Below, piece after piece: positions 19,779 to 23,884 of a stretch of DNA of 64,000 nucleotides. The notes under the pieces are model-generated. The model did not search any database. It saw nothing but the letters and a program-made list of their open reading frames with translations, and was not told where the DNA came from. A program made the translations under genes and the position numbers. The stretch is from NCBI GenBank assembly GCA_963717085.1, contig CAVQVM010000019.1, forward strand, positions 137,397 through 201,396. The letters are read 5' to 3'. The stretch's first letter is position 1. Each line of letters opens with the position of its first letter. Origin of the DNA: an uncultured bacterium (lineage in GTDB: Bacteria > Actinomycetota > Acidimicrobiia > Acidimicrobiales > VFJN01).

Positions 19779-20403
19779 ATGAGCAAGGCACTCGCCACCG
19801 GCTGCACCCTCGAGCACCTAGCCGCGGTGACCGGGTTCGATCACCAGACCATCGAACGGCTGCGGCACGACGATCTCTGCACCGGTGCTGGCCAGCGTCG
19901 TCGCCGCGTCCGTCGCTCAGATCAAGCTCCTCAACGGCGAGATTGCCCGGCTCGAGCGCGACGGTCGCGACGCGCTCGCCGCGCACCCCAAGGCCGCGCT
20001 GCTCGAGGAACTCCCACGAGTCGCCAACGTCAGCCTGGCTCAGCTCATCGCCGAGATCGGCCCGCTGCTGGAACGCTGCGACAACGCCGAACAGGTAGCG
20101 GCCATGTGCGGCGCCGCCCCCGTGACTCGGGCGTCGGGAAAGACCCGCACCGTCGGTTTCCGCTACGCCGCCAACAAGCCCGCCCGGGTCGCCATCACCG
20201 GCTTCGCCGACAACTCCCGGCACTCCTCGGCCTGGGCAGCTGAGCGTTACCGCCAAGCCCGAACCCGCGGTGCTCGCCACCCCCACGCCGTGCGGGTCGT
20301 GGCCCGAGGCTGGATCCGTGTCATCTGGGCCTGGTGGCACACCGGCACCGCGTACACCCCGTCACGACACCGCGGCGAACAGCTCGCAACAGCGATGACT
20401 TGA
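19779..20403 (+). pseudogene. IS110-family transposase remnant (C-terminal half, frame-disrupted, no DEDD N-terminal domain)
   Basis: ...LPRVANVSLAQLIAEIGPLLERCDNAEQVAAMCGAAPVTRASGKTRTVGFRYAANKPARVAI... matches the C-terminal (Transposase_20-type) region. The upstream part lies in a different frame. Confidence 0.7.
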
Positions 20404-20472: not shown

Positions 20473-21609
20473 CACCACCTAGGAGCATCAATCGGGGCGG
20501 GGCACCTCGGTTCCCATGATCCGCGTGGCGACCCATGCACACCGGTACGCCGGATCGCGAACCAAATCTCGCTAGGCGCCCGTATTGATCGGTGAAGCGG
20601 CGATCCGTCTGGATCGCCCACTCTCAAGACAAGGACGACCATCATGCAACGAGTTCTTCGTGCTCCCATCTTCTGGATCTCTGTCGCAGTCGTCGCCGCG
20701 GCTGTGGTGATCCTCGCTCTCACCATGGGCGGTGGCGCCGCCGGCGGTGGGGTCGGCTACTGATAGGTGCCATCTTGTGGTCCATCACCGAGACCGTTGG
20801 CCGCTGCCGGGCGAGCAGTGGAGCACCAGATCGGGCGCTGGGCTCAGTCGGTGAAAGCAACATGCGCCTCGATCGAGACGGCCAGGTCGGGGAGGGCATG
20901 TGGAGCGGTTGTCGGCTTTGGAGCTGGAACGGATTGCGGAGCTGCTGGCTGAAGACGCGCCGTTCTGGCGGCTGCGTCAGGAGGTGCCGCGGTCGCGGTA
21001 TGCGATCTATCGGGCGGTGAAACGGTTGCGGCGTCCGCCGCCGCCGGAGCCGAACCGCTCGGCGCTGCGGCTGTCGCTGGCTGAACGCGAGGAAATCTCC
21101 CGGGGTGTGGCGGCGGGCGAGTCGCTTCGGGTGATCGCCGGTCGGTTGGGCCGGGCACCGTCCACGGTGTCACGCGAGGTTGCTCGCAACGGGGGCCGGG
21201 GCAGCTATCGGGCGCGCCGGGCGGATCGGGCGGCGGTTCGGAACATGCGCCGCCCCAAGGTCGCCAAGCTCACCCAGTGTCCACGGCTGCGGATGGTTGT
21301 CGAAGCCAAGCTCGAGCTGCGCTGGTCGCCGCAGCAGATCGCGAGTTGGCTGGTCTTGGAGTTCCCCGACGACGCGGAGATGCGGGTGGCGCACGAGACG
21401 ATCTACCTGTCGCTGTTCGTGCAGTCCCGAGGTGCGCTGCGCAAGGAACTGACCCGCTACCTGCGGACCAAGCGCAGTGTCCGCCGTCCCGGCGGCAAGG
21501 CAGCACCCAACGGCCAGAGCCACATCCCGGCGATGGTCAACATCAGTGAGCGACCTGCCGAGGCCGCCGACCGGGCGGTGCCGGGCCACTGGGAATCTCA
21601 ATGGTGTTG

Positions 21610-22815
21610 TCAAGCTGCCTGAGCGACCGGTGGCGGGGCAGTGGTCCAGGTGCGGTTCTCGCGTAGGAGTGCCCAGAGGACGTCGACGCGTCTGCGGGCT
21701 AGGGCGATGATCGCTTGGCTGTGGGTTCGGCCGCGCTCGCGTTTCTTCAGGTAGTAGTCGCGGTTCGGTCCGGCCCGCAGCATGCTGGTTTGCGCCGAAA
21801 GGTAGAAGACGTGTCGTAGCGGTCGGCTGTAGCGCTTGGGGCGGTGCAGGTTGCCTGTGCGGCGCCCGGAGTCGTTCGGGACGGGCACCAGTCCGGCGGC
21901 AGCAGCGAGGTGGCCAGCGCTGGGGAAGGCGCGCAGGTCACCGGCGCCGACCAGCAAACAGGCACCGAGAAGTGGGCCGAAGCCGGGCATCGATTGGATG
22001 ACCGCGGCCTGGGGGTGTTGGTCGAAAGTCTCCGCGATCTGGGCGTCGAGGCTCCTGAGGCGCTCGTCCAGCGCCAGGATGTTCGCGGCGAGCTCGGCGA
22101 TGATGCTGGTGGCGAGGTCTTGGCCGGGGAGCACCGTCCTCTGGGCACGGGCAGCAGCGATGGCTCGAGCGGCGACGCCGGCGGAGTCGCGCACCTTGCG
22201 CTGGCGTAGCCATGCCGCCAGCCGCACGTGGCCGATGCGACGGATCCGGTGTGGGCTGGCATAACCGGTCAGCAGCACGAGCGCACCCTTGCGGGACGCG
22301 TAGTCGAACGCTCTTTCCAAGCCGGGGAACACGCTGGTCATCAGGTCTCGGAGCCGGTTGATCATCCGCACCCGGTCAGCGACCAGATCGGCGCGATGGC
22401 CGGTCAGCATCGCCAGGTTGCGGACCAGGTCGGTGTCTTGGTCGACCACGGCCAGGTCGCAGCGCAGGCGCACCGTCTCCGCGATCACATAGGCGTCCTT
22501 GGCATCGGTCTTGCCCTCACCGGCGTAGGCGCTGCTCATCGCGGCGACCATCCGCCCTGACGCATACCGCAGCGACTGGTCGGCCTGAGCCAGCAACGCC
22601 AACATCAGCGCCGCGGGCGCACCGATGATGTCGACCGCCCAGATGGGCTGCTCCGCCACCCCCTGCACGGTCGCGATGAGCGCAAGGATCTCGGCCTCGT
22701 CGTTCGCGACCTTGACCGATAGCAGCCTCTTGCCGTCGGCGTCGAGCGCGCACACCCAGTGGTGCGTCTTGCCGATATCCACCCCGACCCATGCCGTTTC
22801 CTGTGCTGCTGCCAC
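21610..22815 (-). CDS. IS110-family transposase/recombinase (DEDD RuvC-like N-terminal domain + Tnp C-terminal domain)
   Basis: 401 aa: WVGVDIGKTHHWVCALDADGK...MPGFGPLLGACLLVGAGDLRAFPSAGHLAAAAGLVPVPNDSGRRTGNLHRPKRYSR. Confidence 0.95.
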   Translation of the reverse strand: MAAAQETAWVGVDIGKTHHWVCALDADGKRLLSVKVANDEAEILALIATVQGVAEQPIWAVDIIGAPAALMLALLAQADQSLRYASGRMVAAMSSAYAGEGKTDAKDAYVIAETVRLRCDLAVVDQDTDLVRNLAMLTGHRADLVADRVRMINRLRDLMTSVFPGLERAFDYASRKGALVLLTGYASPHRIRRIGHVRLAAWLRQRKVRDSAGVAARAIAAARAQRTVLPGQDLATSIIAELAANILALDERLRSLDAQIAETFDQHPQAAVIQSMPGFGPLLGACLLVGAGDLRAFPSAGHLAAAAGLVPVPNDSGRRTGNLHRPKRYSRPLRHVFYLSAQTSMLRAGPNRDYYLKKRERGRTHSQAIIALARRRVDVLWALLRENRTWTTAPPPVAQAA

Positions 22816-23021
22816 GCGCTTGACCCCTTCCGGTCGGTCCCGATGTCCAGCTCACGAACCCTGCGGGCACCCCGCTGACGCATCCGTAACCAGCGACCAA
22901 GCGCACATCTCAATCAGCAGCCAGGGCACCCCGGAGGATCAGGCGGACATTCCCAGTTAGCGACCAAAGCGCAAGGCGACCTCAGCCACACCCGACCCCC
23001 CCGGGCGATCCACACCCTTAC
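22816..23021 (-). ncRNA. Candidate IS110 bridge RNA in the 5' leader
   Basis: There are two similar modules, guide-GCGCTT(T)GGTCGCT-guide...GGGGTGCCC. Module 1 guides GGTCGCCTT and ACTGGGAAT match the two target flanks. Module 2 guides ATTGAGAT and TTACGGA match the two IS ends. Confidence 0.65.
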
Positions 23022-23545
23022 GGAAGGCGACCTGCTCTACGGCCAAGGCCCCGGCGTGATCGCCACGCTGGTGGAGAGGCACAGCCGGTTCGTGATGCTC
23101 GTCGGGCTCCCCCAAGACCCACCGAGCCGACGTGGTCGCCGCCGCGCTCGCCGCCAAGATCACCGAGCTCCCCCAACAGCTACGGCGCTCGCTCACCTGG
23201 GACCAGGGCCGCGAGATGGCACAGCACGCCGTGTTCACCGTCGCTAGCGGCGTGCCCGTCTACTTCTGTGATCCCCGCAGCCCCTGGCAACGCGGCAGCA
23301 ACGAGAACACCAACGGGCTGCTGCGCCAATACCTCCCTCGCAACACCCGCCTCGGCGACCGCACCCAGACCGAACTCGACAACATCGCCGACGAGCTCAA
23401 CGGACGGCCTCGACAAACCCTCGGCTGGAAGACACCATCACAAGCACTCGACCAGGCGTTGCGATGACCCCCTGAGACCGCCGGGCAATATGCGTTGGTG
23501 TTCGGCTGGTGGCGTCCGAAGTGCTCGCCACGTTCCAAGGACCGC

Positions 23546-23884
23546 ATGAAGCAGATCGCTGGACCGCTGGCCTGCGTTGCGATCACTGTCGCTCTGGCTG
23601 CCTGCAACGGCGATGACGAACCGGAGCTGAGAGCGGACTTCCTGTCGCGCTTCGAGCAGGCGACCACCGGCACCACGAGCTGCCCGGTCATTGCGATTCA
23701 CTTCGAAGATCGGACGACCGGGCACCCGACCGCCTGGGAATGGACCTTCGGCGACGGCTCGGCATCCTCCGAGCAGAACCCGACCTGGGAGGCCAACGCG
23801 GTATCGGCCGAAGTGACACTCACGGCGAGCCGCGGTGGTCTGGAGGACTCGGTCACGAAGGTGATCTCGACTCCCGAGTGCTAA
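23546..23884 (+). CDS. PKD-domain lipoprotein
   Basis: ATG at 23546. Lipobox VALAAC, then FEDRTTGHPTAWEWTFGDGSASSEQNPTWE...VTLTASRGG, a PKD-domain signature. Confidence 0.7.
   Translation: MKQIAGPLACVAITVALAACNGDDEPELRADFLSRFEQATTGTTSCPVIAIHFEDRTTGHPTAWEWTFGDGSASSEQNPTWEANAVSAEVTLTASRGGLEDSVTKVISTPEC

What the first reader, a model, noticed from the sequence alone, without database searches (positions are those of the whole stretch)
22816..23021. IS110 5' leader has bridge-RNA architecture, with guides matching its own target and donor junctions
Read on the minus strand, the leader contains two similar modules. Module 1 (22949-22981) is GGTCGCCTT-gcgctttggtcgcta-ACTGGGAAT. GGTCGCCTT equals the minus-strand flank at 23024-23032, and ACTGGGAAT equals the plus-strand flank/junction at 21588-21596. 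So the two guides read opposite strands of the interrupted IS30 site. Module 2 (22882-22914) is ATTGAGAT-gtgcgcttggtcgctgg-TTACGGAT. ATTGAGAT equals the element end at 21595-21602 (minus strand), and TTACGGA equals the other end at 23018-23024 (plus strand). Each module is followed by GGGGTGCCC. Four matches of 7-9 nt, in the right order, to exactly the four junction half-sites, is the target-binding-loop/donor-binding-loop logic reported for IS110 bridge RNAs (IS621). Here it can be read straight from one insertion.
Basis: partly seen in the sequence, partly recalled or inferred. Interest (0 to 1): 0.75.

Follow-up and report, generated by a model that had tools for sequence, protein, structure and literature searches.

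The report
IS110 bridge RNA aimed at IS30 genes
The non-coding leader of this IS110-type mobile element encodes a typical two-loop "bridge RNA" whose guide segments spell out its own ends and its insertion site. That site is the DNA coding for the conserved catalytic HWEGD motif of IS30-family transposases, and relatives of this element hit it almost every time.

Summary
On the minus strand the leader (22816-23023) carries GGTCGCCTT, ACTGGGAA(T), ATTGAGAT and TTACGGA(T), in that order. They equal the left flank, the reverse complement of the right flank, the right end and the reverse complement of the left end. Chance is about 1e-11.

A 63-sequence alignment of relatives folds into two internal-loop stem-loops: 98.5% of cells paired, and 17 of 39 pairs with compensatory changes. 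The four blocks lie in the loops. Across relatives the guides track each copy's own flanks and ends (0 of 5000 permutations). The 401-aa ORF is an intact IS110 RNA-guided recombinase.

This is a new member of a known kind (IS621-type bridge RNA), not a new mechanism.

The added finding is the target. The guides read AC-TGG-GAA-GGC-GAC-C, the codons for H-W-E-G-D-L of the IS30 transposase. In 120 metagenomic copies with the same guide, 99 of 102 left flanks and 41 of 42 right flanks lie at this motif, in at least 78 different IS30-type genes. Mismatches fall on third codon positions.

Not shown: the transcript, its ends, and activity. Not resolved: the exact core dinucleotide, and a 1-nt difference in guide register from sister clades.

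The parts
21596..23023 (-). Whole IS110-family element, 1428 bp, lying between two TT dinucleotides (23025-23024 and 21595-21594). It is inserted antisense in an IS30-family transposase gene.
   Evidence: The ends are defined by alignment with 18 close and about 60 distant relatives: the left end is CCGTAAG and the right end ATTGAGA. Removing 21596-23025 restores ...[15 protein letters not shown].... The excised sequence aligns colinearly with annotated intact IS30 transposase genes. The exact crossover within the shared T-T-C-C is ambiguous.
22864..23001 (-). Predicted bridge RNA core (target-binding loop plus donor-binding loop), element nt 23-160. The transcript ends are not known.
   Evidence: RNAalifold consensus of 63 relatives and pair counts. 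The window copy keeps 36 of 37 consensus pairs.
22985..23001 (-). Target-binding loop, 5' strand of the basal stem (GGGGGGTCGGGTGTGGC). It pairs with 22948-22933.
   Evidence: Helices 2-3: 14 pairs, 9 with compensatory changes, 98.7-99.2% of cells paired.
22973..22981 (-). Left target guide GGTCGCCTT. It equals the top strand of the left flank plus core (23032-23024) and would pair with the bottom strand.
   Evidence: In relatives this block tracks the left flank: 7.37 of 9 matches against 4.55 when pairings are permuted. Within the clade, guide G/A against flank G/A gives Fisher p = 3e-8.
22960..22972 (-). Inner hairpin of the target-binding loop (GCG-CTTTGGT-CGC).
   Evidence: Helix 4: 3 pairs, 2 with compensatory changes (CG 47 / GC 16), 100% paired.
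22949..22957 (-). Right target guide ACTGGGAA plus one handshake base (T). ACTGGG is complementary to the right-flank top strand CCCAGT, and AA to the core TT. The final T is complementary to the last base (A) of the element's right end.
   Evidence: In relatives the block tracks the reverse complement of the right flank: 7.43 of 9 against 4.94 permuted. The handshake rule is taken from PMC11208158.
22933..22948 (-). Target-binding loop, 3' strand of the basal stem (GTCCGCCTGATCCTCC).
22919..22932 (-). Donor-binding loop, 5' strand of the basal stem (GGGGTGCCCTGGCT). It contains the first GGGGTGCCC.
   Evidence: Helix 5: 13 pairs, 4 with compensatory changes, 98.3% paired.
22907..22914 (-). 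Left donor guide ATTGAGAT. It equals the right end ATTGAGA plus the first core T (21602-21595).
   Evidence: The block is conserved across the family together with the right end. L065 has ATTGAAAT in the guide and ATTGAAA at the right end.
22893..22904 (-). Inner hairpin of the donor-binding loop (GCG-CTTGGT-CGC).
   Evidence: Helix 7: 3 pairs, 100% paired, nearly invariant, so uninformative for covariation.
22880..22889 (-). Right donor guide TTACGGA, followed by T-G-C. TTACGG is complementary to the left end CCGTAA, and A to the second core T. T mismatches the first core base. G is complementary to the last target base before the core (C), as expected of a handshake position.
   Evidence: Across clades this block changes with the left end: TTACGG with CCGTAA, TTAGGG with CCCTAA, TTAAGG with CCTTAA, TGAGGG with CCCTCA.
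22864..22876 (-). Donor-binding loop, 3' strand of the basal stem (AGCGGGGTGCCCG). It contains the second GGGGTGCCC.
21610..22815 (-). Recombinase gene, 401 aa, GTG start, with the TGA stop inside the right-end TTGACA.
   Evidence: PF01548 3.6e-43 and PF02371 8.6e-19. NF033542 'IS110 family RNA-guided transposase', 230 bits against a cut-off of 140. PDB matches to ISCro4 (9t56, 8e-9) and IS621 (8wt6, 1.7e-6). 139 of 140 near-invariant residues of 75 relatives are kept, including S316 of the SG motif.
21608..21613 (-). TTGACA in the right end. In a circular right-end/left-end junction it would lie 17 nt upstream of TAAGGG (23020-23015). This is an inferred junction promoter for the bridge RNA and recombinase.
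   Evidence: Read by hand. The same TTGAC(A/T)-17 nt-TAAGNN arrangement appears in the virtual junctions of 67 of 68 relatives. The stricter sigma-70 scan called no promoter, either in the integrated copy or at a natural tandem junction. Junction promoters are known for the IS110 family (PMC12288879).
23024..23032 (-). Left target half-site plus core (GGTCGCC-TT). On the plus strand this is AA-GGC-GAC-C, coding (E)-G-D-(L) of IS30.
21588..21595 (-). Core copy plus right target half-site (TT-CCCAGT). On the plus strand this is AC-TGG-GAA, coding (H)-W-E of IS30.
20900..23467 (+). Interrupted IS30-family transposase gene, the target. N-terminal part 20900-21595, C-terminal part from 23026.
   Evidence: HTH_38 and rve_3 domains. 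The restored N-terminal 263 aa match NF033563 IS30 family transposase, 126 bits against a cut-off of 80. The gene also carries a frameshift between 23026 and 23132.

Best explanation
The leader of this 1428-bp IS110-group element encodes a bridge RNA of the IS621 type. Once the element is a circle, its right and left ends are joined through the core (...ATTGAGA-TT-CCGTAAG...). That junction puts a right-end TTGACA 17 nt upstream of a left-end TAAGGG, which should drive a transcript running through the leader into the recombinase gene.

The leader RNA folds into two stem-loops, each with a large internal loop.
[quoted passage not shown] Both cover the core.
[quoted passage not shown] Recombinase dimers bound to each loop bring donor and target together and exchange strands at the core, using the conserved serine (S316 here). 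The element is inserted without a classical target duplication. One base after each 3' guide fits the non-cognate partner (U with donor A7, G with target C7), as handshake guides do.

The programmed target is AC-TGG-GAA-GGC-GAC-C, the codons of the H-W-E-G-D-L motif of IS30-family transposases. The element and its clade therefore insert, in one fixed orientation, into IS30-type genes of many hosts and inactivate them.

**Shown here:** the matches, the conserved structure, guide-target and guide-end covariation, target constancy, and an intact recombinase.
**Inferred:** the transcript and its ends, the junction promoter, the core assignment TT, the strand-exchange chemistry, and present-day activity.
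For: - **Matches and chance:** the four matches are exact, with a chance estimate of about 1.5e-11.
- **Consensus fold:** 63 relatives fold into two internal-loop stem-loops. 98.5% of cells are paired, against 41-57% when partners are slid by 1-3 columns. 17 pairs show changes on both sides, against 8.8 +/- 1.5 in shuffles (0 of 500).
- **Window copy:** it keeps 36 of 37 consensus pairs. With the four guides forced single-stranded, the minimum-free-energy fold is the two-loop structure.
- **Guides track flanks:** left target guide 7.37 of 9 matches against 4.55 +/- 0.21 permuted; right target guide 7.43 against 4.94 +/- 0.20; 0 of 5000 permutations reach the observed values.
- **Right donor guide** changes together with the left end across clades.
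- **Within the clade:** guide G/A against flank G/A gives Fisher p = 3e-8. The tolerated mismatches are those that allow rG.dT or rU.dG wobble with the predicted strand: 13 cases against 1, and 31 CT flanks under a UU guide.
- **Target constancy:** 13 of 17 genome relatives restore PGHWEGDLI, and the other 4 are decayed versions of the same site. Of 120 metagenome copies with the same guide, 99 of 102 left flanks read (E)GDL..., with 78 distinct flanking peptides, and 41 of 42 right flanks end in (H/D/N)W.
- **Empty site:** an intact annotated IS30 transposase gene carries CACTGGGAGGGCGACCT.
- **Recombinase:** NF033542, related to the solved IS621 and ISCro4 recombinases, with conserved residues kept.
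- **Junction promoter:** the geometry is conserved in 67 of 68 relatives.
- **Published rules:** the architecture and pairing rules agree with PMC11208160 and PMC11208158.
Against: - **Single-sequence folding gives no support.** The MFE of the 208-nt leader is -89.8 kcal/mol, z = 0.22. The unconstrained MFE of the 172-nt segment (-74.2) beats the consensus fold (-44.8) and pairs the left target guide with G-rich sequence.
- **No Rfam 15 family matched**, and the published covariance model could not be run.
- **No promoter was called** by the sigma-70 scan in the integrated copy or at a natural tandem junction; the -10 matches only 3 of 6 to TATAAT.
- **Core pairing in the donor loop is imperfect.** The left donor guide covers only the first core base, and the right donor guide only the second.
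- **The core dinucleotide is ambiguous,** because donor and target share T-T-C-C.
- **Register difference.** The left target guide match ends flush with the inner hairpin here, but 1-2 nt earlier relative to the junction in sister clades. This is unexplained (note 3).
- **No expression or activity data.**
- **This copy may be dead.** The host IS30 gene is also frameshifted, so the insertion may be old.
Confidence: 0.9

Rival explanations
1. The four blocks act as DNA, not RNA. They would be subterminal copies of the element ends and of the preferred target, serving as recombinase-binding or synapsis sites in the double-stranded element.
For: The matches are equally present in the DNA. No transcript has been shown. 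Single-sequence RNA folding is not significant.
Against: - DNA binding sites would not need the surrounding sequence to keep base pairing through compensatory changes: 17 pairs, 0 of 500 shuffles.
- The two halves of each site read opposite strands and are split by a conserved hairpin. This is the RNA-loop geometry solved for IS621.
- The mismatch asymmetry fits RNA-DNA wobble (G.T and U.G tolerated, A.C rare).
- The recombinase belongs to the family shown to be RNA-guided.
Confidence: 0.04
2. The element is a decayed relic. The leader once encoded a bridge RNA, but this copy is no longer transcribed or active, and the matches are only a fossil of one past insertion.
For: The integrated copy has no recognisable promoter upstream. 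The host IS30 gene carries a further frameshift, which suggests age. There is only one copy in 64 kb. The exact protein is not on record elsewhere.
Against: The ORF is open and full length, with 139 of 140 near-invariant residues kept. 36 of 37 structural pairs are kept. All four guides match their sites perfectly. Weak expression from integrated copies is normal for IS621 (PMC13626964). This reading concerns present activity and does not contradict what the leader is.
Confidence: 0.15
3. The matches arose by chance, or from low-complexity G+C-rich sequence.
For: The region is G+C-rich, and short matches are common in such DNA.
Against: Dinucleotide-preserving shuffles give about 1.5e-11 for all four blocks. 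The same arrangement recurs in about 180 related copies, with guides changing along with their flanks.
Confidence: 0.001

Closest known systems
IS621 bridge RNA and recombinase (E. coli; Durrant et al. 2024, PMC11208160; Hiraizumi et al. 2024, PMC11208158)
   Same: - The RNA is encoded in the left end, upstream of a DEDD/Tnp recombinase.
- There are two internal-loop modules, target loop first and donor loop second.
- The 5' loop strand pairs with the bottom strand over 8-9 nt, and the 3' strand with the top strand over 6-8 nt.
- The core is covered by the target guides.
- A base following each 3' guide fits the non-cognate partner (handshake).
- The right end supplies a -35 element and the left end a -10 element.
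   Different: - Protein similarity is remote: only the Tnp domain aligns, E = 1.7e-6.
- There is no separate 5' stem-loop in the consensus. Instead the target loop has a long basal stem of about 14 pairs, and a 4-bp helix closes both modules.
- The core reads TT (or YT) rather than CT.
- The donor guides cover the core only partly.
- The target is a protein-coding motif rather than an intergenic repeat.
IS900 / IS116-type actinobacterial IS110 elements (target CATG-N6-TCTCCTT; PMC8141618)
   Same: These are the sister clades in the same alignment (54-64% protein identity). They share the same leader scaffold, the same ATTGAGA right end, and a CC(G/C/T)TAAG left end.
   Different: Their target guides spell the reverse complement of a ribosome-binding site plus start codon. 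Those of the window clade spell the IS30 HWEGD codons. The left target guide register relative to the junction differs by 1-2 nt.
IS4321 / IS5075 and IS1111-attC elements, which are IS1111-group elements that insert into the inverted repeats of Tn21-family transposons or into integron attC sites (from my own knowledge of the IS literature; not re-checked here)
   Same: Members of the IS110/IS1111 family that are specialised to a conserved sequence carried by other mobile elements.
   Different: They belong to the IS1111 group, where the RNA is encoded in the right end. Their targets are non-coding recombination sites, not the coding sequence of another transposase's active site.

Membership tests
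IS110-group bridge RNA (IS621 type) | Encoded in the non-coding left end, upstream of and on the same strand as an IS110-family DEDD/Tnp recombinase gene | tested here: met
   The leader 23023-22816 lies directly upstream of the 401-aa ORF, which has PF01548 and PF02371 and matches NF033542 at 230 bits against a cut-off of 140.
IS110-group bridge RNA (IS621 type) | Two stem-loops, each with a large internal loop interrupted by an inner hairpin, with the target loop 5' of the donor loop | tested here: met
   RNAalifold consensus of 63 relatives: 98.5% of cells paired, 17 of 39 pairs with compensatory changes, slid controls 41-57%. The window copy keeps 36 of 37 pairs. Single-sequence MFE does not recover the fold.
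IS110-group bridge RNA (IS621 type) | The 5' strand of each loop equals the top strand of the left half-site (8-9 nt). [quoted passage not shown] The core is included. | tested here: met
   Left target guide 9 of 9, right target guide 8 of 8, left donor guide 8 of 8 (7 plus the first core base), right donor guide 7 of 7 (6 plus the second core base). Core coverage in the donor loop is partial.
IS110-group bridge RNA (IS621 type) | Guides covary with target and donor sequences across orthologues | tested here: met
   Permutation tests, 0 of 5000. The right donor guide changes with the left end across clades. Within the clade, Fisher p = 3e-8.
IS110-group bridge RNA (IS621 type) | Handshake bases 3' of the right target and right donor guides are complementary to position 7 of the non-cognate DNA | tested here: inconclusive
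   In the window, U after the right target guide fits donor A7, and G two bases after the second-core-base pair of the right donor guide fits target C7. Donor A7 is invariant in the family, and the core assignment is ambiguous, so there is no independent covariation test (note 3).
IS110-group bridge RNA (IS621 type) | Match to the published bridge-RNA covariance model or a curated RNA family | not testable with these tools
   Rfam 15 gave no hit in 21000-23600 at E <= 1. The published model is not available here.
IS110-group bridge RNA (IS621 type) | The RNA is transcribed, binds the recombinase and is required for recombination | not testable with these tools
   No expression or biochemical data. 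Only a conserved TTGAC(A/T)-17 nt-TAAGNN arrangement at the virtual right-end/left-end junction.
IS110 family insertion sequence (IS110 group) | No terminal inverted repeats, a left end longer than the right end, site-specific insertion, and a 2-nt core at both junctions instead of a classical duplication | tested here: met
   The left-end non-coding region is 208 nt, and the right end is 14 nt past the stop codon. TT lies at both junctions. Excision restores the IS30 reading frame at the join.
IS30 family transposase gene (the target) | HTH plus DDE integrase core, with the conserved HWEGD block | tested here: met
   NF033563 at 126 bits against a cut-off of 80 for the restored N-terminal part; HTH_38 and rve_3. 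Colinear with annotated IS30 transposase genes. That the D of HWEGD is the first catalytic residue rests on my own knowledge of the family, not on a test here.

The most novel reading that the evidence does not exclude
This element belongs to a widespread soil and actinobacterial clade of IS110 elements whose bridge RNA is hard-wired to a protein-coding sequence: the H-W-E-G-D-L active-site block of IS30-family transposases. A mobile element would then use an RNA guide to home into, and knock out, the catalytic core of a different family of mobile elements. The guide tolerates exactly the wobble-type mismatches that synonymous codon variation produces. I found no report of this target in the searchable literature.

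A second, smaller point concerns geometry. In this clade the left target guide pairs one nucleotide closer to the inner hairpin than in sister clades. The first 'core' base is always target-derived at the left junction and donor-derived at the right junction. This hints that only one core base needs to be shared.
Probability: 0.8. Interest if true: 0.55.

Novelty: new member of a known kind. Interest (0 to 1): 0.42.

Why it matters
As a bridge RNA it adds nothing new in principle. Published covariance-model surveys already predict such RNAs in most IS110 elements.

The value lies in three things.
- **A worked natural example.** All four guides, one handshake base and the empty site can be read from one insertion, in a high-G+C lineage far from IS621.
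- **The target.** A whole clade is aimed at the codons of another transposase family's catalytic motif. That gives the element a multi-copy, horizontally travelling site that is harmless to the host. It also makes the element a natural antagonist of IS30 elements.
- **A natural mismatch-tolerance data set.** About 100 independent insertions are available with one guide. The core and register observations could inform off-target rules for engineered bridge recombinases.

Tried and rejected
- **Rfam 15** scan of 21000-23600 at E <= 1 gave only three chance-level hits to unrelated families.
- **Single-sequence folding** of the leader was not significant and gave the wrong topology. It was dropped in favour of comparative analysis.
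- **Exact-protein look-up** for other copies found nothing on record.
- **Other sites in the window:** a search for further target sites or further copies of the guide block found none beyond chance.
- **Sigma-70 scan** of the integrated leader and of a natural tandem junction (L032) called nothing. The junction promoter is therefore only a hand reading, supported by conservation.
- **Literature searches** for an IS110-into-IS30 relationship ('IS110'+'IS30'+'bridge RNA', 'HWEGD', 'seekRNA'+'IS30') turned up nothing relevant.
- **Alternative core assignment.** I considered core CT at GGTCGC-CT-TCCCAGT with donor core AT. This would put the left target guide in the same register as sister clades. 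I rejected it because it would require a CC core at GAG-type targets, with no base shared with the donor. It would also worsen the fit of both the right target guide and the right donor guide.
- **Custom covariance model:** I did not build one. The alignment already shows homology, and the test would be circular for the window.

Full report
**1. The observation**

Read on the minus strand, the element starts CCGTAAGGG at 23023 and ends ATTGAGA at 21596. TT lies on both sides, at 23025-23024 and 21595-21594.
- GGTCGCCTT (22981-22973) equals the left flank plus TT.
- ACTGGGAAT (22957-22949) is the reverse complement of A-TT-CCCAGT at the right junction.
- ATTGAGAT (22914-22907) equals the right end plus one T.
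- TTACGGA (22889-22883) is the reverse complement of T-CCGTAA at the left junction.

In 200,000 dinucleotide-preserving shuffles of the leader, each block turned up in 0.1-0.3% of shuffles and all four never. The product of the single frequencies is about 1.5e-11.

**2. The element and its setting**

The 401-aa ORF (22815-21610, minus strand) carries PF01548 (DEDD_Tnp_IS110) and PF02371. It scores 230 bits on NF033542, 'IS110 family RNA-guided transposase', against a cut-off of 140. Its Tnp domain matches the solved ISCro4 and IS621 recombinases, with E = 8e-9 and 1.7e-6. It keeps 139 of 140 residues that are at least 97% conserved in 75 relatives, including S316 in the SG motif.

Removing 21596-23025 (1430 bp) restores an IS30-family reading frame through the join...[38 protein letters not shown].... 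The restored N-terminal part matches NF033563. The excised sequence aligns in one colinear piece with annotated intact IS30 transposase genes on plasmids. One of those genes carries the uninterrupted site CACTGGGAGGGCGACCT.

**3. Is it an RNA structure?**

Single-sequence folding says nothing useful. The 208-nt leader has an MFE of -89.8 kcal/mol with z = 0.22, and the topology is not two loops. Rfam 15 has no matching family.

Comparative analysis is decisive. A protein-guided scan returned 80 related loci at 54-84% protein identity. Element nt 1-172 of 62 non-redundant relatives plus the window were aligned (A1). RNAalifold predicts the following:
- a long basal stem (columns 25-42 with 81-100) that encloses an internal loop split by a 3-bp hairpin;
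- a second basal stem (102-115 with 166-178) that encloses another internal loop split by a 3-bp hairpin;
- a 4-bp helix closing both.

Pair counting gives 98.5% of cells paired, against 41-57% when partners are slid by 1-3 columns. 17 of 39 pairs have changes on both sides, against 8.8 +/- 1.5 in shuffles (0 of 500). The window copy keeps 36 of 37 of these pairs. When its four guide blocks are held single-stranded, the MFE is exactly this two-loop fold. The unconstrained MFE is lower (-74.2 against -44.8 kcal/mol), so thermodynamics alone does not favour it.

The four blocks fall on the four loop strands. The motif is self-complementary through G.U pairs.

**4. Do the loop strands behave as guides?**

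In the more distant relatives, the block after the conserved GGGTGTGGCT differs from clade to clade and follows each copy's own left flank. Two examples: L067 has flank CAAGGCGGCT and guide CAAGGCGGCTT; L080 has ATGGCACGT and ATGGCACGTT.

The 3' loop strand follows the reverse complement of the right flank. Examples: L035 has CTGTGGGAG against CTCCCACAG; L067 has CGGAGCGAG against CTCGCTCCG.

Permuting which flank goes with which guide lowers the mean matches. The left guide falls from 7.37 to 4.55 +/- 0.21 of 9, and the right guide from 7.43 to 4.94 +/- 0.20. None of 5000 permutations reached the observed values.

The right donor guide changes with the left end: TTACGG with CCGTAA, TTAGGG with CCCTAA, TTAAGG with CCTTAA, TGAGGG with CCCTCA. 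In L065 the left donor guide ATTGAAAT goes with a right end ATTGAAA.

This is the pairing scheme published for IS621. [quoted passage not shown] The core is included, and the first loop addresses the target while the second addresses the donor (PMC11208160).

The extra ninth match of ACTGGGAAT is explained by the handshake rule (PMC11208158). The base after the right target guide pairs with donor position 7, here the final A of ATTGAGA. Likewise, the G two bases past the second-core-base pair of the right donor guide fits the last target base before the core (C).

**5. The target**

On the plus strand the two target guides together read AC-TGG-GAA-GGC-GAC-C. These are the codons of H-W-E-G-D-L in the IS30 transposase.
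- All 17 close relatives with readable junctions (L001, L003-L018) sit at the same place. 13 restore (A/I)(V/I)PGHWEGDLI in otherwise divergent IS30-type proteins. The other four are decayed versions: a 1-nt loss, a W-to-stop change, an H-to-R change and an indel.
- Of 102 loci with at least 20 nt of left flank, 99 read (E)GDL..., with 78 distinct 14-residue continuations. Of 42 with a readable right flank, 41 end in (H/D/N)W.
- Flank variation is confined to positions -2, -5, -8 and -11, the third codon positions.
- The guide polymorphism GGTC/GATC follows the Asp codon GAC/GAT. The counts are 61 G-G, 14 A-A, 13 G-A and 1 A-G (guide base first, flank base second), giving Fisher p = 3e-8.
- The asymmetry, together with 31 CT flanks under a UU guide, is what rG.dT and rU.dG wobble with the predicted DNA strand would allow.

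**6. Expression (inferred)**

The recombinase stop codon lies inside a right-end TTGACA (21613-21608). In a right-end/TT/left-end circle this hexamer would sit 17 nt upstream of TAAGGG (23020-23015). The same TTGAC(A/T)-17 nt-TAAGNN arrangement is present in the virtual junctions of 67 of 68 relatives.

The tool's sigma-70 rule needs at least 4 of 6 matches in the -10 element. It calls nothing, either in the integrated copy or at the natural tandem junction in L032.

Junction promoters that drive the bridge RNA and recombinase are known in this family (PMC12288879). Weak bridge-RNA expression from integrated IS621 copies is also documented (PMC13626964).

**7. What stays open**

- **Core assignment.** Donor (ATTGAGA-TT-CCGTAAG) and target (GGTCGCC-YT-CCCAGT) share T-(T)-C-C, so the exchanged dinucleotide cannot be read from the junctions. 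The first 'core' base is target-type at every left junction. In the metagenome set it is TT in 63 copies and CT in 36, corresponding to Glu GAA and GAG. It is T at nearly every right junction (34 of 35). The right target guide fits the donor-type base, and the right donor guide does not fit the donor's first core base.
- **Guide register.** The window clade and the sister clades all have 11 nt between GGCT and the inner hairpin, ending in CTT. Even so, the left target guide match ends flush with the hairpin here, and 1-2 nt earlier relative to the junction in sister clades (note 3).
- **Transcript and activity.** Neither has been shown.

**8. Comparison and verdict**

In mechanism and architecture this is an IS621-type bridge RNA in a distant actinobacterial lineage. 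Its sister clades are IS900/IS116-like elements, whose guides spell the known CATG-N6-TCTCCTT target (PMC8141618).

It differs from IS621 in four ways:
- it lacks a separate 5' stem-loop;
- it has a long target-loop stem plus a closing helix;
- its core reads TT or YT;
- its donor guides cover the core only partly.

The finding is a new member of a known kind.

The clade-wide aiming at the IS30 active-site codons is the part a specialist might not expect. I found no report of it in the searchable library. I cannot exclude that ISfinder or other literature records it.

Noticed in passing
window 19885-20403 (+): A 172-aa ORF with only the C-terminal IS110 domain (PF02371, 8.6e-12). It looks like a 5'-truncated second IS110-family recombinase gene, unrelated in sequence to the element studied, about 500 bp upstream of the IS30 gene start.
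   Followed up: no
window 23026-23132 (+): The interrupted IS30 gene is also frameshifted. After ...LVGLPQD the frame is lost, and the C-terminal part continues in another frame (ORF 23132-23467). A run of five C near 23100 is the likely place. This is either a real pseudogene or a sequencing error.
   Followed up: partly
L032:1413-1428 (Streptomyces sp. NPDC058773 contig): Two complete copies of a sister element lie head to tail, joined as ATTGAGA-CT-CCGTAAG. This is either a true tandem dimer or a circular form captured by assembly. It shows the donor junction sequence directly.
   Followed up: partly
L022, right flank of the element (Nocardioides sp. AE5): The right end is followed by ATCCGTAAACAGCGAC. 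This is the reverse complement of the right-donor-guide block of a bridge-RNA gene. The DNA encoding that guide mimics the donor left end, so this may be a recombination between an element end and a bridge-RNA gene.
   Followed up: no
L026-L080 (Streptomyces, Kitasatospora, Nocardia and others): Sister clades are inserted at CATG-N6-CT|CCTT. This is the reverse complement of a ribosome-binding site plus ATG, and is the motif reported for IS900 (PMC8141618). Their target guides spell this site and vary with the N6 spacer.
   Followed up: partly
L003, L102, L103 (left junctions): Three copies of the window clade have a left junction one nucleotide shorter (GATCGCC-T-CCGTAAG). This is the length expected if the left target guide paired in the register used by sister clades.
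   Followed up: no
L112, L123, L173 (right flanks): A few copies with the same guide sit next to ...R(V/L/I)GDW instead of ...PGHW. They may lie in a divergent branch of IS30-like or other DDE transposases that shares the W-E-G-D block.
   Followed up: no
L087 (metagenome contig Ga0209875_1004670): 87% identical to window 22942-23489 over 564 nt, covering the same IS30 fragment and the left end of the element. This is a related genome with the same insertion.
   Followed up: no
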